Source of the DNA: Escherichia coli
GTDB lineage: Bacteria; Pseudomonadota; Gammaproteobacteria; Enterobacterales; Enterobacteriaceae
Assembly (NCBI RefSeq): GCF_024700885.2
Contig: NZ_CP117014.1
Direction: 5' to 3' (one strand)
DNA: 64,000 nt
Shown here: piece by piece, positions 45,272-57,575 of the stretch
Layout of the letters: every line of letters starts with the position of its first letter
How positions within the stretch are numbered: the first letter of the stretch is position 1
Notes under the pieces: model-generated
Told to the model about the DNA's origin: nothing
Database searches by the model: none
The model's input: the letters and a program-made list of their open reading frames with translations, nothing else
Made by a program: the position numbers and the translations under genes

Positions 45272-45301
45272 AAGAAGCCCGCTCAACCAGGCGGGCTTCT
45301 T
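45272..45301. terminator. bidirectional hairpin terminator after doc
   Basis: AAGAAGCCCGC-tcaaccag-GCGGGCTTCTT (11-bp stem), sitting between convergent genes. Confidence 0.6.
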
Positions 45302-45305
45302 ACTA

Positions 45306-46400
45306 TCACTCAATGATTTTTTCTGCTGTCAGCCAGCTAATTTCTTGCCTGTCTTTCGGCGGTTTTAGCATGTGGGCGTATTCAGCGACATTCTCCCACG
45401 GAATTGTTTTTGCCCACTCAACGATAGCATTGTGATCTGCAGTGAAGAGTGGAATGGTGTGCGATTTCAACCATTCTAATGTCGTGACGCCATGTTTTTT
45501 GGCGTGGTGCTGCGCATGATGCCGGGCTATCACTCGTAATGGTATTGTCCATTCACTACCATCAGGCATCGAAAAGCGCATTGTCTTCGGCATATCTGAT
45601 TCAAGAACAGCCTCCCTAATACCAGGGAACTCACCAAGAATCATACGACGATAGTCATCACTATTTCGCCCGCCATACCTTTCGGCAAAATGATCAAGAT
45701 ATTCTTGGGTAATAAATGGTGAATCCTCCGCACTCAGCTTAATGGCTTTATATACACCACTCGGATTATCTTCAGCTAAAGCACGTCCATGATGTGAATC
45801 ATAAAAAAAGCCTATTTCCTCTGGTGACGGAATTGAAGTGAGCAATATGCGTGAATCACCACTAGTCATGCTTGCCCACACAATGCTGTATGCCCGATCG
45901 CTGATATGTGCGGAATCCACAATAATGAATAAAAGATGGTCGGCGTAGTGACCTGCAATGCTATCTTCATAGTTAAGGCGGAAGTTACAAAAGCACATTC
46001 CCCAAAATTCATTGAACATCAGACCGCTATCACCGACCTTAAAATACTCAATGATAAAAGGTTGTTTTTTCAGCAATGCCTCCCAACATTGCCACACATA
46101 TGCAACAATTCCTCTTTTGCAAACATTTGATTTTGGATAAACAATTACTGTCCGGGAATCAGGATACATAATCGTATAAAGGGTACTAATAACAGCAAGC
46201 ACTTGCGGTCGTCCGATCCCATACGGAGTGGTGACAGTAGCTTTTGCATTATTGGGCTGTATAGCTTCAACAATTTGTTGTTGCTGGTGGCTTAAATCAA
46301 TATCAAACAATTCTTTTGCTGCCAGTACCCAATTGTCTTTATATTTCTCCACCAGCGACAGCCAGCGCGGATCTTTATAAATATTGCTCTTAGTCGCCAT
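45306..46400 (-). CDS. terminase large-subunit (PacB) ATPase-domain paralog with degenerate Walker motifs, no nuclease domain
   Basis: The likely start is MATKSNIY at 46400 (RBS aaggaag). It aligns to the PacB-like protein of this window (DPRW, SHQQQQI, FYDSHH, SPF.T, GEFP). Walker A GHGTGKSS is replaced by PYGIGRPQ, and Walker B LILDEAS by IIVDSAH. Confidence 0.6.
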   Translation of the reverse strand: MATKSNIYKDPRWLSLVEKYKDNWVLAAKELFDIDLSHQQQQIVEAIQPNNAKATVTTPYGIGRPQVLAVISTLYTIMYPDSRTVIVYPKSNVCKRGIVAYVWQCWEALLKKQPFIIEYFKVGDSGLMFNEFWGMCFCNFRLNYEDSIAGHYADHLLFIIVDSAHISDRAYSIVWASMTSGDSRILLTSIPSPEEIGFFYDSHHGRALAEDNPSGVYKAIKLSAEDSPFITQEYLDHFAERYGGRNSDDYRRMILGEFPGIREAVLESDMPKTMRFSMPDGSEWTIPLRVIARHHAQHHAKKHGVTTLEWLKSHTIPLFTADHNAIVEWAKTIPWENVAEYAHMLKPPKDRQEISWLTAEKIIE

Positions 46401-47157
46401 CTGCCACTTCCTTAACTTCTTCTTTGGCCTGTTCTGCAATCGCCGCACGGCATTTCGCCCTGGCTGTAGCGATTGCTTCAGCTCGCACATCGTCTGGAAT
46501 CGTTGACGTGATATACATATCCAGTTCTTCGGCACGGAATACTGTTTGGTCCAGATATTCGCGTAGCATCCAGGTAAATTCGAAATCACACGCGATAATC
46601 TCTGCGCTACCTTCTGCACCATTTGGGAAATGAATAAATGCCTGTTTAGCCAAACCGATAACACGACATGCGGTTGCCAAAACAGCGACAACTAGGTTTA
46701 CATTTTCACACGCTACGGGCTGGTTAACGCCGGAGATTACTCCATTTAACTGTCGGTTATATGGAAGGTAGTTTGAGATGCGTTCTACGCGCCATGTGCC
46801 AGTCAGGCTGCCATTTTTAAATATAATTGGTGTAACGGATAGCCCAAGCTCGCGTATAAGTCGTTGCGCTATAGCAGGATCATTAAACAGGTCTAATGCT
46901 ACACATTCGAAAGACTGCGCAAGGGCAAACAGTTCTTCCAGAGAGTAGTCTTTGCCCCTGGCGGTGATGTAACGACGAACGCCGCTGTCTGCATCACTCC
47001 ATATAGCTACGCCATGCTCTTCATTCAGCTCTTCATTAAAGCCGAGATACGTCATGATAGTGCGTTCAATCGTGTCAAACGGCAGTGACATGTCGGCGTT
47101 AACAGCCACCAGCAGGCCATTACGCAAGCGGTATTGAATTGTTTTAGTGCTTTCCAT
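46390..47157 (-). CDS. hypothetical protein
   Basis: 255-aa ORF overlapping the downstream start by 11 nt. Confidence 0.4.
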   Translation of the reverse strand: MESTKTIQYRLRNGLLVAVNADMSLPFDTIERTIMTYLGFNEELNEEHGVAIWSDADSGVRRYITARGKDYSLEELFALAQSFECVALDLFNDPAIAQRLIRELGLSVTPIIFKNGSLTGTWRVERISNYLPYNRQLNGVISGVNQPVACENVNLVVAVLATACRVIGLAKQAFIHFPNGAEGSAEIIACDFEFTWMLREYLDQTVFRAEELDMYITSTIPDDVRAEAIATARAKCRAAIAEQAKEEVKEVADGD

Positions 47158-47163
47158 GTCAAA

Positions 47164-47604
47164 TCACTCCACAACAAACCAGTCACAGGCCAGCAGGTCG
47201 CCAACTGAAGGCACCCACGGAACAACTACACCTTGTGCATTTTTTAAGGCGAAATAAGCACCATACGGAACGAGGTCGCCGGGGAAATATCCCTTAATGG
47301 CTTCCATTCGTGCCGGGTACTGTCCTTCAGGAACCAGCCAGCAGAATTGGTTTTCGCCGTTCCACCCGCGTCGAGCAACTTTCTTGCCTTCCTTCAGCCA
47401 CATCAGCGCGTCTGAAAAGTCGGCTGCTTCAAGGTCGATTTCTTCTTGCTGGGTGGTGATGCCACCAGCAGAAATAGTTACGCTCCCGGTAAGATTAATC
47501 ATCACGCCGTTGTCATCCGTAATGATGACCGTGGTTCCATTTTTTTTGTGAGCTTTGTATTTGGGACGGAACTTAAAAAGCTCTTTCGTTGCCATGTTAT
47601 TCAT
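47164..47604 (-). CDS. DUF2829-domain protein (Tad2-family-like) with N-terminal extension
   Basis: The C-terminal FSDALMWLKEGKKVARRGWNGENQFCWLV...YFALKNAQGVVVPWVPSVGDLLACDWFVVE fits the DUF2829 pattern (F..AL..lK.GkkvaR.gWng ... W.ps..DllA.DW). Confidence 0.6.
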   Translation of the reverse strand: MNNMATKELFKFRPKYKAHKKNGTTVIITDDNGVMINLTGSVTISAGGITTQQEEIDLEAADFSDALMWLKEGKKVARRGWNGENQFCWLVPEGQYPARMEAIKGYFPGDLVPYGAYFALKNAQGVVVPWVPSVGDLLACDWFVVE

Positions 47605-47618
47605 AGTCTTTTCTCTGC

Positions 47619-48113
47619 TTATAACTTTTCGTACTGAAGCGGTGAACGCTTAATTTCAAAGTGGCCTTCCGATGTGCTACCAAAGCCACCAGCACCACGC
47701 TCCGTTTCGTTGAGTTCCTCAACCTCGACTAGTGAGACTTGTTCAACACGCTCAAAAATTCCTTGCATGACAGCCATTCCAGGCTTGAGACAAACGCCTT
47801 CCCCGCCGGGATCAGTAATCAGTTTTGCCATGATTTCGCCGCGATAATCGGAGTCGATAATTCCTACGCAGTTAGCCAGGCGAGTATGTTTTTTGCAGCC
47901 CAATCCTGATCGCGGATAGAGTTTCAGACACCAGCCGGGCGGGATCTCCATAGCCAGTCCGGTATACACCCACCAGCTTGAGGAAATTGCACCATTGCTA
48001 TCGACGCATGGTTTTATTTCAACAGCCTCAAAATCCATCGCCGCCGATCCGGAGGTGGCATAAGCTGGAAGTTTTGCTGCCGGATGTAGGCGTTTCACTT
48101 TTACGTAAATCAT
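47619..48113 (-). CDS. dut: trimeric dUTPase
   Basis: Motifs present: SAAMDF, PRSGL, GIIDSDYRGEI, RGAGGFGST. Confidence 0.85.
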   Translation of the reverse strand: MIYVKVKRLHPAAKLPAYATSGSAAMDFEAVEIKPCVDSNGAISSSWWVYTGLAMEIPPGWCLKLYPRSGLGCKKHTRLANCVGIIDSDYRGEIMAKLITDPGGEGVCLKPGMAVMQGIFERVEQVSLVEVEELNETERGAGGFGSTSEGHFEIKRSPLQYEKL

Positions 48114-48592
48114 TGTTTTTTAGCTCTCTGCGTGAAGGTGTAAACCCGACGTTTGATATGTGGAACGGTAGGAACAGGAAGACAGGAACTTTCAATAACT
48201 CCTTGCTCATCCAGCGATCGCACCGCCCGCAAGAACTGCGACGTGTCGCCGCCAAACTGGCGGGCATAGGTGCTGCCGTTATGAAGTATTTGAGCTATTA
48301 CCCGAGTTTTTGTCTGGCTGTCACGATATGCGAATAGCCGCACGGCCTCTTCTGGCGCAATCGCTAACTGATAGCCTTTCCCGGCACGGTGTCGAATGAA
48401 TCCATGCGCCAGTAGGTTTTTGAGTTCGTTACGAGTGCGAACAGATCCGTAACCCAGGAAGTGTGGATTGATAACGACTGGCTTAAACCATTCCGTAGGT
48501 GCTTTAGCTAATAGAGCTAACAGCTTCCCGGATAATTCTGGATAGGAAGACGGGTAACAATTCAGAGATGGGTAATAAGTTTTCACCGACAC
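48110..48592 (-). CDS. hypothetical protein
   Basis: 160-aa ORF with a 4-nt overlap with dut. Confidence 0.4.
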   Translation of the reverse strand: MSVKTYYPSLNCYPSSYPELSGKLLALLAKAPTEWFKPVVINPHFLGYGSVRTRNELKNLLAHGFIRHRAGKGYQLAIAPEEAVRLFAYRDSQTKTRVIAQILHNGSTYARQFGGDTSQFLRAVRSLDEQGVIESSCLPVPTVPHIKRRVYTFTQRAKKQ

Positions 48593-48927
48593 CCCCTTGC
48601 AGGATATCGACCGGCATTAGTATCCGGTGCAATAAAGCCGGTAGTGGGGCGAGTGAAAGCGAGATTAATCTTCTCGACCATAGTGCGATAATTTTCCTGA
48701 TAGTGGGCCAGGAGTTTTTCGGCGGCAATGATGGTTACTTTCCGGACGTAGCTTTCTGCTTCCTCCAGATTTCGCCAGTTTTTTTCGAGGGTAAACACAG
48801 GGACGGCCTCAAGCCCGGTCATGATGCCGAACACAACGACAGCATGACTGTTCTTAACACCAGCGGCGAAGGTTACGGTGTAACCATCCACCTTGAAGCG
48901 TCTTGATTCCGTGATTTGACTCTGCAA
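48583..48927 (-). CDS. hypothetical protein (first gene of the dut operon)
   Basis: 114 aa. TTG start after a taggaggg RBS. An operator-like box GTGTTAGAAATTT lies at 48985-48997 upstream. Confidence 0.4.
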   Translation of the reverse strand: MQSQITESRRFKVDGYTVTFAAGVKNSHAVVVFGIMTGLEAVPVFTLEKNWRNLEEAESYVRKVTIIAAEKLLAHYQENYRTMVEKINLAFTRPTTGFIAPDTNAGRYPARGCR

Positions 48928-49000
48928 AGCACCCTCCTAAATAGGCGAGGGTACTTTACAGCAAAGGCGTTAATCTAAAAAGATGTGTTAGAAATTTAAT

Positions 49001-54750: not shown

Positions 54751-54829
54751 TAATCCCCCGGGCAGGAAATGACCGAGGGGATGATAATGAGAATGTTAAA
54801 ACTGTATAGACTGGTAAAAAGATGAATGT

Positions 54830-54857
54830 ATTAGAAAATTAATACTAAATATCTAAT
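54830..54857. promoter_or_regulatory. operator-like dyad variant ATTAGA-N16-TCTAAT
   Basis: It has the same 16-nt spacing as the GTTAGA/TCTAAC dyads and carries a symmetric G-to-A / C-to-T change in the two half-sites. Confidence 0.45.
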
Positions 54858-54858
54858 G

Positions 54859-55251
54859 CTACCAGCTAGACAAACGAACAACATGTTTCACTTTTGCGAT
54901 CCACTGTCCGCGATAACTATTGATTACGGCCTGTGCCAGCTTCAAATTGGCTTCAAAATCAGCCTTACTACCATCAGACTCCACCAGCATTCCTCCATCT
55001 ATTTCTGGTAAACATAGATAATCCTGCTCAACCTGCAGCGGCATTGATGGCTCTCTGAATGGGGTTACTTGCTCTGCTTTCCAGCGAAATCTAACCCTTA
55101 TCCCCCTGGTGGTCATTACTAGATAGCCTGTTATAGTGCTTTTATGGCCCACATCAGTACGCGTGGCATTGCATGACTCGATCTTACAGTTAGCGATAGA
55201 CCACTCCATATTGGTGGCCTGTTGAGTGCTTAATTTGGTAGTCCCGTACAT
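54859..55251 (-). CDS. hypothetical protein
   Basis: 130-aa ORF. Confidence 0.4.
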   Translation of the reverse strand: MYGTTKLSTQQATNMEWSIANCKIESCNATRTDVGHKSTITGYLVMTTRGIRVRFRWKAEQVTPFREPSMPLQVEQDYLCLPEIDGGMLVESDGSKADFEANLKLAQAVINSYRGQWIAKVKHVVRLSSW

Positions 55252-55826
55252 CAGAAAGCCTCCCAGTCAGTCGCGATAATATCCACACCAGTTGCAAACC
55301 AGTCTGTCTGCGCCTGTAAATCCCCATTCATCATTACCAGGCGAGGCATCACCATCACATCGCACCCTTCCACAATATCGAATGCCTCTTCCGGCAAGAA
55401 TTCGAAGAGCTTTTCTTTGCTGCCAATACTGCCACGGAACATCGATATATAGCTCCCTTTGGGCCATGATGTCCGCCGGGCATCAAGCCCTTTCATCATC
55501 CAGTAAAAAGCCGAGGAAAAAGGGATATTCTTTTTGCCAATGATTACATTATTCGCTTCTGTGTATTTCAGGAACTTAACTAACCTTACCATTGACTCGG
55601 ATAACGCAACGTATGGCTCATGATTGATTGCTGACACGCTTACACCGTGCAATCCAACGCTTACCACTGTCATATCGCCGCTCTGTGCGGTTTCGATATT
55701 GACGCCTTTGCGAACTAATGAGGCGTAAATTTCCTCTCGCTTTTGGGTCCAGCGTTCACGCTTCCCTATGAAGTCACTCAAAATGAGATCTTCTTCTGTA
55801 TATGCGTTATCGTTCGCCATTAACAT
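55251..55826 (-). CDS. second DUF2829-like protein with N-terminal extension
   Basis: The C-terminal half (FSSAFYWMMKGLDARRTSWPKGSYISMF...MPRLVMMNGDLQAQTDWFATGVDIIATDWEAF) fits the same F..A...G...R.sW ... W....D..A.DW pattern. Confidence 0.45.
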   Translation of the reverse strand: MLMANDNAYTEEDLILSDFIGKRERWTQKREEIYASLVRKGVNIETAQSGDMTVVSVGLHGVSVSAINHEPYVALSESMVRLVKFLKYTEANNVIIGKKNIPFSSAFYWMMKGLDARRTSWPKGSYISMFRGSIGSKEKLFEFLPEEAFDIVEGCDVMVMPRLVMMNGDLQAQTDWFATGVDIIATDWEAF

Positions 55827-56096: not shown

Positions 56097-56280
56097 CGCC
56101 GTGCTCTTCCGGCTGTCACACCGAATCGCCAGGATGGTGAATCCGCAGTCCGACGCTATGAACGGGGCTTGCACATTCCGGCTACCTGGTGTGCCCATGC
56201 AGTGTTAGTAAAAGGTACCTAACAGCTACACCAGACCGCTAACGACGCATGTGCCATACGCCGTGTTACAACCAAATGTG

Positions 56281-56356
56281 GTGGCCCCTACCGGACTTGA
56301 ACCGGTGACCGTGCGATTATGAGTCGCCCGCTCTAACCACTGAGCTAAAGGGCCAG
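56281..56356 (-). tRNA. tRNA-Ile2 (anticodon CAU, lysidine type) or Met
   Basis: GGCCCTTTAGCTCAGTGGTTAGAGCGGGCGACTCATAATCGCACGGTCACCGGTTCAAGTCCGGTAGGGGCCACCA forms a cloverleaf. From memory it is close to E. coli ileX. CCA is encoded. Confidence 0.85.
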
Positions 56357-56785
56357 ATTACTGTTAATTACGCTTACGCTTTTTGCCAGAACCGCGTAAG
56401 GCTTTTGCCGCTTGCTCTACCCCGTATGCAACCACCAGCAGAAACAATAATGTCCACTCCGGGTTTTTATCGGCAAACGCCCAAAAATCCATCACTTGCA
56501 GCCACCTTTTAAGACAAAACGCCATTGCTGTTAGGTTGCGGTGCCGGGCGCCTCCCGGTGACGTTAACCAGTTAACAATTAACGCCGGATCACTTATGGA
56601 TTCTCGTTACGCCAGTAAAAAGACCACCTTTACTGTTTTAACTGTTCCGCGTGCGCTTAGCCGCATTCACCGCAATGGTAAGAGCATTTGGCTGACTGGG
56701 CGGCGATGACGCCTGTACGCATTTGGTGATCCGGTTCTGCTTCCGGCATTCGCTTAATTAGCCAAATACCCTTAATGTTGCACTG

Positions 56786-56872
56786 GCGGAGAGTAATGGA
56801 ATCGAACCATCATCGCTTGCGCAATGGGACGGTTTTCAAGACCGCTTGAGCACCATGCTCCCTACTCTCCCG
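56786..56872 (-). tRNA. tRNA-Ser (anticodon UGA), class II with atypical D arm
   Basis: Acceptor GGAGAGT/ACTCTCC, discriminator G and CCA. Anticodon stem-loop GCGGT-CTTGAAA-ACCGT. Long variable arm and T arm GATGG-TTCGATT-CCATT. The D arm (GAGC-ATGGT-GCTC) lacks the GG. Confidence 0.65.
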
Positions 56873-57002
56873 TTATTGTGGCGACCGGTGCTGATCTCCG
56901 GCTTGCGGTTATTTCAGACTCTCACGGGCGTTTAATTGCCCCGCCGAACAGCTCTTTTCCGCAATAGCTGCAATGTCTTTCGCGCATCAGCCTGCGCATT
57001 CA

Positions 57003-57102
57003 CCACAATGTTGAGAACACTGGTTGTCACGCTGCAACGCAACATTTATTCGTAGATTGGGATATGACCCCGTTACGCCAGTGTTCTCAACGTTGTAGTG
57101 CC
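57003..57102. repeat. box-hairpin element B
   Basis: CACCACAATGTTGAGAACACTGG / CCAGTGTTCTCAACGTTGTAGTG: 23 positions (21 Watson-Crick pairs, 1 GU, 1 mismatch) with a 54-nt loop. Confidence 0.55.
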
Positions 57103-57238
57103 GGTTACGGTTCCGGCCAGACCTCTTCCTCAACGGGGTGTTCTCCATACGGACTACCGTTTATTGGTCGTTCCTGCGGTTTATGTTGTGAAGCCAGATG
57201 CTTATCTTCTGGTTGCTTCAAAGAGCTGCACTTCATCA

Positions 57239-57325
57239 CAACGGTAAGAGCATTTATGGCTCGCATCGCGGGAAAAAGCCCACGGTAGAGAGTCGAACTC
57301 TACAAATGCTCTTACCTGTTGTGTT
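57239..57325. repeat. box-hairpin element C containing a T-arm-like hairpin; abuts the tRNA-Thr 3' end
   Basis: The outer stem is CACAACGGTAAGAGCATTT / AAATGCTCTTACCTGTTGTG (19 bp, 1 bulge). On the minus strand the inner region reads GTAGAG-TTCGACT-CTCTAC, then CGTGGG-CTTTTT-CCCGCG. Confidence 0.55.
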
Positions 57326-57326
57326 G

Positions 57327-57402
57327 GTGCCGGTTAACGGGATCGAACCGCTGACCATTCGCTTACAAAGCGACTGCTCTACCAACTGAGCTAAACCGGC
57401 AA
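57327..57402 (-). tRNA. tRNA-Thr (anticodon UGU)
   Basis: GCCGGTTTAGCTCAGTTGGTAGAGCAGTCGCTTTGTAAGCGAATGGTCAGCGGTTCGATCCCGTTAACCGGCACCA; the anticodon loop is TTTGTAA. Confidence 0.85.
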
Positions 57403-57406
57403 TTTG

Positions 57407-57493
57407 GTGGGGAGTGATGGAGTCGAACCACCCGAGTCGCAATGACAGTAGATTTACAGTCTACCCCGCTACCCCTACGGACTAACTCCCCTA
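57407..57493 (-). tRNA. tRNA-Tyr (anticodon GUA), class II
   Basis: GGGGAGT...GTAGA-CTGTAAA-TCTAC, a long variable arm, T arm GGTGG-TTCGACT-CCATC, acceptor 3' strand ACTCCCC, discriminator A and CCA. Confidence 0.8.
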
Positions 57494-57498
57494 AATTG

Positions 57499-57575
57499 GC
57501 GATGGTGGGTGGATTCGAACCACCTACCGAAAGCTTAGAAGGCTGCTGTTCTATCCTACTGAGCTACACCATCAC
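57499..57575 (-). tRNA. tRNA-Arg (anticodon UCU)
   Basis: Acceptor GATGGTG/CACCATC, discriminator G and CCA. The anticodon loop is CTTCTAA and the T arm GGTGG-TTCGAAT-CCACC. Both the anticodon stem and the D stem contain mismatches. Confidence 0.7.

What the first reader, a model, noticed from the sequence alone, without database searches (positions are those of the whole stretch)
47164..47604. Two DUF2829 (Tad2-family-like) proteins with N-terminal extensions in one prophage
The C-terminal halves of two products carry the hallmark I associate with DUF2829: F..AL..lK.Gkk.aRr.W ... W.ps..Dl.A.DW.
- 47164-47604: ..FSDALMWLKEGKKVARRGWNG...VVPWVPSVGDLLACDWFVVE
- 55251-55826: ..FSSAFYWMMKGLDARRTSWPKG...QTDWFATGVDIIATDWEAF

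DUF2829 is the family that includes the anti-Thoeris gcADPR sponge Tad2.

Both proteins have ~60-100 extra N-terminal residues. The first is embedded between dut and the inactive terminase paralog, in an early operon preceded by an operator-like box. They may be signalling-nucleotide sponges or other anti-defence factors.
Basis: partly seen in the sequence, partly recalled or inferred. Interest (0 to 1): 0.55.

Follow-up and report, generated by a model that had tools for sequence, protein, structure and literature searches.

The report
Two Tad2-family genes in D6-like phage-plasmid
A D6-like plasmid prophage of E. coli carries two different genes of the known Tad2 family, whose members soak up bacterial immune alarm molecules; databases and a recent survey already label them this way, so the finding is correct but largely ordinary.

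Summary
Both ORFs end in a Pfam PF11195 (Tad2-like/DUF2829) domain above the curated cut-off. Predicted structures of both match solved Tad2 structures.

[quoted passage not shown] It keeps the core pocket residues W/N/W/S/D. Its N-terminal "extension" is what remains after a 237-bp in-frame deletion in a 220-233-aa two-domain protein found in sister plasmids.

Protein 2 (55251-55826, minus strand, 191 aa) belongs to a rare subfamily. It has a dsRBD-like N-domain and a divergent Tad2 domain with W-P-K in place of W-N-G. It always lies just upstream of lpa-pacA-pacB. Its ligand is unknown.

The window is a D6-like, P1-family phage-plasmid. Protein 1 sits in a six-gene operon behind a recurrent box that is probably the D6 C1 operator.

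Novelty is low. RefSeq already names these genes "Thoeris anti-defense Tad2 family protein" or "DUF2829", and a 2025 preprint reports Tad2 in 93% of D6-like phage-plasmids. No binding or anti-defence activity has been tested for either protein.

The parts
47164..47604 (-). Protein 1 gene (146 aa; D6 orf114 homolog). N-terminal remnant plus Tad2 domain.
   Evidence: ORF. 98.6% identical to D6. PF11195 81.6 bits.
47167..47421 (-). Tad2 (PF11195) domain of protein 1, residues 62-146. Pocket-aligned residues are W81, N82, G83, L120, N122, Q124, V128, W130, S133, G135, D136.
   Evidence: PDB phmmer hit to ModTad2 9eib/8v3e, E about 1e-20. AF2 pLDDT about 93 for this domain. The top 24 Foldseek PDB hits are all Tad2 structures. 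Alignment.
47422..47604 (-). N-terminal 61 residues of protein 1: a 20-aa stub plus a linker, left by a 237-bp in-frame deletion. The junction is near 47542-47545 and is flanked by CAAAAA microhomology in the long form.
   Evidence: Protein alignment A1. DNA alignment with pMTY12355_3. Low pLDDT for residues 1-22.
55251..55826 (-). Protein 2 gene (191 aa; D6 orf6 homolog). Two-domain Tad2-like protein.
   Evidence: ORF. 99% identical to D6. PF11195 39.3 bits. phrog_7362.
55254..55520 (-). Divergent Tad2 domain of protein 2, residues 103-190. Carries W121-P122-K123 in place of W-N-G, plus W176, T179, D183.
55554..55814 (-). N-terminal domain of protein 2, residues 5-91. Predicted alpha-alpha-beta3-alpha, dsRBD-like topology.
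48982..48998 (-). Operator-like box TAAATTTCTAACACATC in the 73-nt gap between the cre-like gene and the first gene of the operon that holds protein 1.
   Evidence: The same site is present in D6.
54825..54841 (-). Second copy of the box, 75-91 nt upstream of lpa. This is the positional equivalent of the P1 C1 operator Olpa (Op94). It lies downstream of protein 2 and orf5.
48583..48927 (-). First gene of the operon (D6 orf117 homolog, phrog_1968, function unknown).
48110..48592 (-). Second gene of the operon (D6 orf116 homolog, phrog_6669, function unknown). Overlaps its neighbours.
47619..48113 (-). dUTPase gene, immediately upstream of protein 1 (14-nt gap).
   Evidence: PF00692 54 bits. Sequence.
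46390..47157 (-). IsaA homolog (phrog_2326), 6 nt downstream of protein 1. A constant neighbour of this Tad2 gene in D6, SJ46 and pMTY12355_3.
45306..46403 (-). PacB (large terminase) paralog, last gene of the operon. Absent from D6.
45277..45292 (-). Terminator-like hairpin after the operon.
54859..55251 (-). 130-aa ORF (D6 orf5 homolog, phrog_7004). Its start overlaps protein 2's stop by 1 nt.

Best explanation
The window is a D6-like, P1-family phage-plasmid of E. coli that encodes two unrelated-looking members of the Tad2 (PF11195/DUF2829) family of anti-defence sponge proteins.

Protein 1 belongs to the ModTad2/Tad2_68 clade. By homology, four copies of its C-terminal domain would form the Tad2 tetramer. 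The inter-protomer pockets (W81, N82, W130, S133, D136) would sequester TIR-made ADP-ribose-derived alarm molecules. The most likely ligand is His-ADPR of type II Thoeris, and possibly also 3'cADPR of type I. The Thoeris effector would then never be activated.

Protein 1 is transcribed with dut and isaA from a six-gene operon behind a box that is probably the D6 C1 operator. It would therefore be made early, after infection or induction. Its N-terminal 61 residues are a remnant of a larger N-domain lost by an in-frame deletion, not a functional addition.

Protein 2 is a rarer two-domain relative, with a dsRBD-like N-domain and a divergent Tad2 domain. It is fixed next to lpa-pacAB in D6-type elements. 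It most likely also sequesters a small immune signal, but which one cannot be said.

Shown here: family, fold, residue conservation, gene order, the deletion, the recurrent box. Inferred: tetramer, ligand, timing of expression, anti-defence phenotype.
For: Family and fold
- Pfam PF11195 hits above cut-off for both proteins.
- Protein 1 hits ModTad2 (9eib/8v3e, E about 1e-20), HgmTad2 and SPO1 Tad2 by PDB sequence search.
- The AF2 model of protein 1 has pLDDT about 93 in the Tad2 domain. Its top 24 Foldseek PDB hits are all Tad2 structures, the best being ModTad2 with His-ADPR.

Functional proxy for protein 1
- It is 68% identical to Tad2_68 and 46% to ModTad2.
- Tad2_68 inhibited type II Thoeris in both screen and plaque assay, and is marked 'y' for type I in the plaque assay (Hadary et al., bioRxiv 10.1101/2025.08.24.671296, Table S2).
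- ModTad2 sequesters His-ADPR and also cUMP/cCMP.
- The positions aligned to the SPO1 Tad2 pocket residues W25, N26, I63, T65, D67, H71, W73, S76, T78, D79, plus the Gly of W-N-G, are identical between protein 1 and Tad2_68.

N-terminal extensions do not block function
- The AcrIIA7-type homolog in the Table S2 row before the MoTad2 control (453-nt insert, about 150 aa) and Tad2_73 (158 aa) both scored positive in assays.

Selection on the Tad2 domain
- A 237-bp in-frame deletion and an independent in-frame dUTPase-Tad2 fusion both keep the domain intact.

Early-operon context
- The genes are tightly packed or overlapping, with a terminator-like hairpin after the last gene.
- The box recurs 5 to 8 times against about 0.3 expected.
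- One copy lies where P1 has the C1 operator Olpa.

Protein 2 family
- W121, W176, D187 and W188 are invariant and D183 is mostly kept.
- Synteny with lpa-pacAB holds even at 23% identity.

Independent annotation
- PGAP names the genes 'Thoeris anti-defense Tad2 family protein' or 'DUF2829'.
- A DefenseFinder-type screen found Tad2 in 93% of D6-like phage-plasmids.
Against: - No binding, oligomer or phenotype data exist for either protein.
- The ModTad2 residues specific for His-ADPR and for cUMP were not available in text, so ligand specificity rests on the 68% homolog.
- Protein 1 has lost most of its ancestral N-domain, which could mean decay.
- Protein 2 lacks the phosphate-contacting Asn (W-P-K). 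In its subfamily that position is not conserved (P/R/D/M/N/G/H).
- Of protein 2's closest tested relatives, Tad2_69 (27% identity) inhibited none of seven systems. Tad2_72 (26% identity) was positive only for type I Thoeris.
- Several protein 2 alleles in other plasmids are frameshifted.
- No box or clear sigma-70 promoter lies directly upstream of protein 2.
- The identity of the box as a C1 operator is inferred from position only. It matches the P1 operator consensus at only about 9 of 16 positions, and no P1-type operator is present.
Confidence: 0.72

Rival explanations
1. Protein 2 has a Tad2 fold but is not a sponge for any currently known immune signal. Its conserved place beside lpa-pacAB and its dsRBD-like N-domain would point to another role. 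Options include binding an undiscovered signal, a nucleic acid or another protein, or a role in late-gene or packaging control.
For: - The Asn of W-N-G is replaced and is not conserved in the subfamily.
- The nearest tested homolog, Tad2_69, inhibited none of seven systems.
- The family is very small: 16 hits among 1.84 billion representatives.
- Synteny with lpa holds even at 23% identity.
Against: - Both pocket Trp residues and the Asp are kept.
- Tad2_72 also has W-P-K and scored positive against type I Thoeris.
- The dsRBD-like topology is a very common small fold and the scores are weak.
- Accessory genes often sit at fixed hot spots without any functional link to their neighbours.
Confidence: 0.3
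2. Protein 1 is a decaying gene. The in-frame deletion crippled a two-domain protein, and the remaining ORF is non-functional or on its way to loss.
For: - 79 residues of the N-domain are missing relative to the 220-233-aa forms that dominate in P1-like plasmids.
- Other truncated or fused variants exist.
Against: - The Tad2 domain is intact, 98-99% identical to long forms, and in frame, with every pocket-aligned residue kept.
- The short form is shared by phage D6 and the window.
- Stand-alone 87-89-aa Tad2 proteins are fully active.
- An independent dUTPase fusion also preserves the domain.
Confidence: 0.1
3. The proteins are AcrIIA7-like anti-CRISPRs that inhibit Cas9.
For: A DUF2829 protein was first reported as AcrIIA7. 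PDB entries 8kbi and 9kzr carry that name.
Against: Li et al. could not reproduce Cas9 inhibition and showed sponge activity instead. To my knowledge, E. coli does not carry type II CRISPR-Cas.
Confidence: 0.03
4. Protein 2 is a 'MW1434 family type I toxin-antitoxin toxin', as some RefSeq records name its homologs.
For: The name is given to P0008 and to one plasmid copy.
Against: - No NCBIfam model hits it at E <= 0.01.
- It is a 191-aa protein predicted to fold as two globular domains, with no predicted membrane helix. From general knowledge, type I toxins are short hydrophobic peptides.
- Most RefSeq copies are named Tad2 family.
Confidence: 0.02

Closest known systems
Tad2_68 (IMG/VR UViG_3300014659; Hadary et al. 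2025 preprint) and ModTad2/MoTad2 (PDB 8V3E, 9EIB)
   Same: - Protein 1's Tad2 domain is 68% and 46% identical to these, respectively.
- The insertion between beta2 and beta3 has the same length class.
- All 11 positions aligned to the SPO1 pocket are identical to Tad2_68.
- The best structural match is ModTad2 with His-ADPR.
   Different: - Protein 1 carries 61 extra N-terminal residues, a deletion remnant of a larger N-domain.
- It has not been tested.
- It sits in a plasmid-prophage early operon with dut and isaA.
SPO1 Tad2 (PDB 8SME/8SMF) and HgmTad2/AcrIIA7 (8KBI-8KBM)
   Same: Same fold. The W-N-G motif and the W..S..D motif are conserved in protein 1. Both Trp residues and the Asp are conserved in protein 2.
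   Different: - Identity is 36% for protein 1 and about 20% for protein 2.
- Protein 2 has W-P-K instead of W-N-G and a subfamily-specific conserved insertion (G132, P145, MPR).
- Both window proteins have N-terminal additions.
220-233-aa DUF2829 proteins of P1-like phage-plasmids (SJ46 gp048, pMTY12355_3 WP_311042694)
   Same: These are orthologs of protein 1: same first 20 residues, same linker and Tad2 domain, and same isaA neighbour.
   Different: They keep a roughly 100-aa N-terminal domain of unknown function (phrog_11049/872). The window and D6 have lost it through a 237-bp deletion.
Tad2_72 and Tad2_69 (W-P-K/Q variants tested by Hadary et al.)
   Same: Like protein 2, they replace the Asn after the first Trp with Pro. 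They are 26-27% identical to protein 2.
   Different: They are single-domain proteins (108 and 80 aa). One inhibits type I Thoeris and the other inhibits nothing tested, so they do not predict protein 2's activity.

Membership tests
Tad2 / PF11195 (DUF2829) | Match to the Pfam PF11195 profile above the gathering score (25 bits) | tested here: met
   Protein 1: 81.6 bits. Protein 2: 39.3 bits.
Tad2 / PF11195 (DUF2829) | [quoted passage not shown] | tested here: met
Tad2 / PF11195 (DUF2829) | Conserved ADPR-pocket residues (SPO1 W25, N26, W73, S76, D79) | tested here: met
   Protein 1 has W81, N82, W130, S133, D136.
Tad2 / PF11195 (DUF2829), protein 2 | Conserved ADPR-pocket residues (SPO1 W25, N26, W73, S76, D79) | tested here: inconclusive
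   Protein 2 has W121, P122 (Asn lost), W176, T179, D183. The Asn position varies across its subfamily. A tested W-P-K homolog, Tad2_72, is still active against type I Thoeris.
Tad2 / PF11195 (DUF2829) | Homotetramer made of two V-shaped dimers | not testable with these tools
   Only monomer prediction is available. Needs AF-multimer, SEC-MALS or a crystal structure.
Tad2 / PF11195 (DUF2829) | Binds and sequesters an immune signalling molecule (3'cADPR, His-ADPR, N7-cADPR, cUMP/cCMP or cyclic dinucleotides) | not testable with these tools
   Inferred for protein 1 from the 68%-identical Tad2_68. Unknown for protein 2.
Tad2 / PF11195 (DUF2829) | Relieves Thoeris, Pycsar or CBASS defence when expressed | not testable with these tools
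Tad2 / PF11195 (DUF2829) | Encoded by a phage or prophage | tested here: met
   The window is 97.9% identical to phage D6 in this region. Both genes lie on 90-97-kb phage-plasmids in E. coli.
ModTad2 clade (His-ADPR binders) | [quoted passage not shown] | tested here: met
   Protein 1 only: 68% to Tad2_68 and 46% to ModTad2, its best PDB hits. Protein 2: not met (about 22%).
ModTad2 clade (His-ADPR binders) | Residues that contact the histidine moiety of His-ADPR in 9EIB | not tested
   The residue list was not available in any text held.
C1-controlled early operon (P1 type) | C1 operator overlapping or next to the promoter | tested here: inconclusive
   No P1-consensus operator is present. 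A recurrent 17-mer lies upstream of the operon and at the Olpa-equivalent position. Binding by D6 C1 is untested.

The most novel reading that the evidence does not exclude
Protein 2 would represent a distinct, narrowly distributed two-domain Tad2 subfamily: a dsRBD-like N-domain plus a Tad2 domain lacking the canonical Asn. It is fixed beside lpa-pacAB in D6-type phage-plasmids. In this reading it sequesters an immune signal not yet described, or couples signal binding to a second activity of its N-domain. D6-like elements would then carry two sponges with complementary specificities.
Probability: 0.2. Interest if true: 0.55.

Novelty: new member of a known kind. Interest (0 to 1): 0.27.

Why it matters
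Tad2 sponges are an established phage counter-defence. These two genes add members from a medically common group of E. coli and Salmonella plasmid prophages.

Practical value is modest:
- Protein 1 is a good candidate His-ADPR/3'cADPR binder native to E. coli phages.
- Protein 2 could serve as bait to fish out an unknown signal, as ModTad2 did for His-ADPR.
- The repeated in-frame deletions that spare the Tad2 domain are a small natural experiment. They suggest that the domain alone is what selection keeps.

Tried and rejected
- A search for the P1 C1 operator consensus ATTGCTCTAATAAATTT with up to 3 mismatches found nothing. I replaced this with the recurrent D6-type box.
- The box does not resemble P1 late promoters (AAGTGAnTn plus -10), so that reading was rejected.
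- NCBIfam gave no hit for either protein or its neighbours.
- Pfam gave nothing for either N-terminal region, or for the N-domain of the long form.
- A PDB sequence search with the long-form N-domain gave only a weak Dec-protein hit (E 0.006). I treated it as noise.
- PDB sequence search with protein 2 found nothing. Only the fold comparison worked.
- Recent duplication of the two genes was rejected: BLAST between them is not significant.
- The published Nature version of the His-ADPR paper is not held, so the His-contacting residues could not be checked.
- The sigma-70 scan found no convincing promoter directly upstream of protein 2.

Full report
**Observation**

The two ORFs are present as described, both on the minus strand: 47164-47604 (146 aa) and 55251-55826 (191 aa).

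Both match Pfam PF11195, now named 'Tad2-like, Thoeris anti-defense 2-like domain', above the 25-bit gathering score:

| Protein | Bits | E-value | Residues |
|---|---|---|---|
| 1 | 81.6 | 5.9e-23 | 62-145 |
| 2 | 39.3 | 9.5e-10 | 103-190 |

The extra N-terminal residues (about 61 and about 102) are therefore real.

**What the element is**

- The region is 97.9% identical to Escherichia phage D6, a P1-family plasmid prophage.
- The surrounding genes are the D6/P1 set: Cre-like recombinase, Phd/Doc, Lpa, PacA/PacB and C1.
- In complete E. coli genomes, the protein 2 gene occurs in 97 of 5,426 genomes, always on plasmids; those listed are about 80-96 kb.
- The protein 1 gene occurs in 212 genomes, almost always on such plasmids.
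- The 24-kb stretch around both genes matches 91-97-kb plasmids at about 98% identity.
- So this is a plasmid prophage rather than an integrated one.

**Protein 1: family and likely ligand**

- A PDB sequence search gives ModTad2 (9EIB, 8V3E) at E about 1e-20. HgmTad2/AcrIIA7, SPO1 Tad2 and SptTad2 follow.
- An AlphaFold2 model built on 78 homologs has pLDDT about 93 over residues 62-146.
- The 24 best Foldseek matches in the PDB are all Tad2 structures. The first is ModTad2 in complex with His-ADPR.
- ModTad2 sequesters His-ADPR, the type II Thoeris signal. It also binds cUMP/cCMP of Pycsar in a second pocket.
- The closest experimentally tested relative is Tad2_68 from Table S2 of Hadary et al. 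(bioRxiv 10.1101/2025.08.24.671296). It is 68% identical over 82 residues.
- Tad2_68 is recorded as inhibiting type II Thoeris in both the screen and the plaque assay. It is marked 'y' for type I Thoeris in the plaque assay.
- The SPO1 Tad2 ligand contacts are W25, N26, I63, T65, D67, H71, W73, S76, T78 and D79.
- In protein 1, the aligned residues, with the Gly of W-N-G, are W81, N82, G83, L120, N122, Q124, V128, W130, S133, G135 and D136. They are identical to Tad2_68 at every one of these positions.
- I infer that protein 1 is a sponge of the His-ADPR / 3'cADPR type. This is homology-based; nothing was measured.

**Protein 1: the N-terminal 'extension'**

- The commonest close homologs are 216-233 aa and lie on roughly 90-kb contigs.
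- Alignment shows they share protein 1's first 20 residues and its linker (KNGTTVIITDDNG...EEIDLEAAD). They carry about 79 further residues in between.
- A D6-like plasmid, pMTY12355_3, has the long form in exactly the same locus: cre, two unknown genes, dut, DUF2829, isaA, pacB paralog.
- At the DNA level the window differs from it by one clean 237-bp in-frame gap. The ends of that gap carry CAAAAA in the long form.
- The extension is thus the remnant of a lost N-domain of unknown function (phrog_11049/872; no Pfam or PDB match).
- In the model, residues 1-22 are disordered and residues 24-51 form low-confidence hairpins.
- A second, independent rearrangement in other plasmids fuses dUTPase in frame to the same Tad2 domain. 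This is P0038, with PF00692 plus PF11195 and the junction at GAGG|ITTQQ.
- Other relatives append a C-terminal crAss001_48 domain.
- The Tad2 domain is what all these variants retain.
- Phage P1 itself lacks the gene: ssb is followed directly by isaA. In SJ46 the Tad2 gene sits between ssb and isaA.

**Protein 1: operon and the box**

- From 48927 down to 45306, six co-directional genes overlap or are separated by at most 14 nt. They are two unknown genes, dut, protein 1, the IsaA homolog and a PacB paralog.
- A terminator-like hairpin follows at 45292-45277.
In fact IsaA intervenes. The 365-aa ORF is indeed a PacB paralog, 37% identical to D6 PacB over residues 8-260.
- The 73-nt gap upstream of the operon contains TAAATTTCTAACACATC. 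With up to 3 mismatches, this 17-mer occurs 5 times in the window against 0.25 expected.
- Its core TTTCTAAYAC occurs 8 times against 0.27 expected. It is found at the corresponding sites in D6.
- One copy lies 75-91 nt upstream of lpa. In the P1 record the C1 operator Olpa (Op94) lies 71-87 nt upstream of lpa.
- No P1-consensus operator exists in the window.
- I therefore read the box as the D6-type C1 operator, and the operon as repressor-controlled and early. This fits a sponge that must be present before the alarm signal accumulates. It is an inference from position only.

**Protein 2**

- It has no PDB sequence hit. Among deposited phages it is found only in D6.
- In 5.8 billion clustered proteins, only about 10 clusters match at E <= 0.001. 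All named ones are E. coli, and several are frameshifted.
- An exhaustive search of 1.84 billion representatives finds 16 hits. About ten of them are 190-270-aa proteins that align over both domains at 20-41% identity.
- The AlphaFold2 model has mean pLDDT 89.
- In the family alignment the two pocket Trp residues (W121, W176) and the terminal D-W are invariant. The Asp equivalent to SPO1 D79 (D183) is mostly kept.
- The Asn that contacts the phosphates is Pro here and is variable across the subfamily.
- The subfamily also has its own conserved insertion features (G132, P145, MPR).
- The nearest tested homologs give mixed guidance. Tad2_69 (27% identity, W-P-Q) inhibited none of seven systems. 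Tad2_72 (26% identity, W-P-K) is marked positive for type I Thoeris.
- Gene order is strikingly conserved. P0008 (55% identity) and even P0144 (23% identity) lie immediately upstream of lpa-pacA-pacB, with c1 facing them.
- In the window, protein 2's stop overlaps the start of a 130-aa ORF of unknown function. Both genes lie upstream of the lpa box.
- No box and no clear promoter sit between protein 2 and the tRNA cluster upstream.
- The most likely function is still a sponge, but the ligand is open.

**The two proteins are not recent duplicates**

BLAST between them is not significant.

**Comparison with what is known, and novelty**

- Both genes are already labelled by NCBI's pipeline. Protein 2's copies are named 'Thoeris anti-defense Tad2 family protein', and protein 1's 'DUF2829 domain-containing protein'. 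At least one plasmid has both named Tad2.
- A 2025 preprint on phage-plasmids reports a Tad2/AcrIIA7 anti-Thoeris hit in 93% of D6-like and 56% of P1-like elements (bioRxiv 10.1101/2025.09.12.675607).
- The Tad2 family is known to be functionally diverse. Different members bind 3'cADPR, His-ADPR, N7-cADPR, cUMP/cCMP or cyclic dinucleotides.
- N-terminally extended members are known to work.
- The finding is therefore a correct identification of new, untested members of a known kind.
- Three points are new here but minor: protein 1's extension is a deletion remnant; rearrangements repeatedly spare the Tad2 domain; and protein 2 defines a small two-domain subfamily fixed next to lpa.
- The old AcrIIA7 anti-CRISPR reading is disfavoured by published work.
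- The occasional RefSeq name 'MW1434 family type I TA system toxin' does not fit a 191-aa protein predicted to fold as two globular domains.

**Verdict**

- Observation: confirmed.
- Interpretation: supported, strongly for protein 1 and tentatively for protein 2.
- Novelty: low.
- Interest: about 0.27. The remaining upside is that protein 2 may bind an undescribed signal.

Noticed in passing
window 8325, 18809, 32822, 48985, 54828, 58642, 58798, 61090 (10-mer starts): TTTCTAAYAC occurs 8 times in the window against 0.27 expected, and at matching sites in D6. The copy upstream of lpa sits where P1 has the C1 operator Olpa. It is probably the D6-type C1 operator, and differs from the P1 consensus.
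   Followed up: partly
window 45306-46403 (-): A 365-aa PacB (large terminase) paralog is the last gene of the operon. It is 37% identical to D6 PacB and 51% identical to an extra ORF in some P1 variants. It is absent from D6 itself, and no GK[ST] Walker A motif was seen by eye.
   Followed up: partly
window 46390-47157 (-): The IsaA homolog (phrog_2326, no known domain) directly follows this Tad2 gene in D6, SJ46 and pMTY12355_3. In P1 it follows ssb directly, with no Tad2 gene. Its function is unknown; it could be another accessory or anti-defence gene.
   Followed up: no
P0038 (other D6-like plasmids); corresponds to window 47400-48113: An in-frame dUTPase-Tad2 fusion protein (241 aa) arose by a deletion between the GAGG of dut and the SAGG of the Tad2 linker.
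   Followed up: partly
P0006, P0007, P0009, P0010 (homologs of window 55251-55826): Several alleles of protein 2 in other E. coli plasmids are frameshifted or truncated, so the gene is dispensable in some lineages.
   Followed up: no
window 56279-57573 (-): The tRNA cluster Met(CAT), Ser(TGA), Thr(TGT), Tyr(GTA), Arg(TCT) lies on the same strand as protein 2. D6 has Asn/Thr/Ser on the opposite strand and tciA/tciB in between, so this element differs from D6 here.
   Followed up: no
window 54859-55251 (-): A 130-aa ORF (phrog_7004, no domain) is translationally coupled to protein 2. It is present in close relatives but absent next to the distant homolog P0144.
   Followed up: partly
RefSeq records NZ_CP173569.1 and P0008: Some annotations call the protein 2 homolog 'MW1434 family type I TA system toxin'. 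This does not fit its size or predicted fold and looks like a naming artefact.
   Followed up: partly
P0046, P0113 and others (homologs of protein 1): Some enterobacterial relatives carry the Tad2 domain followed by a C-terminal PF21825 (crAss001_48-related) domain. This is another fusion architecture of the family.
   Followed up: no
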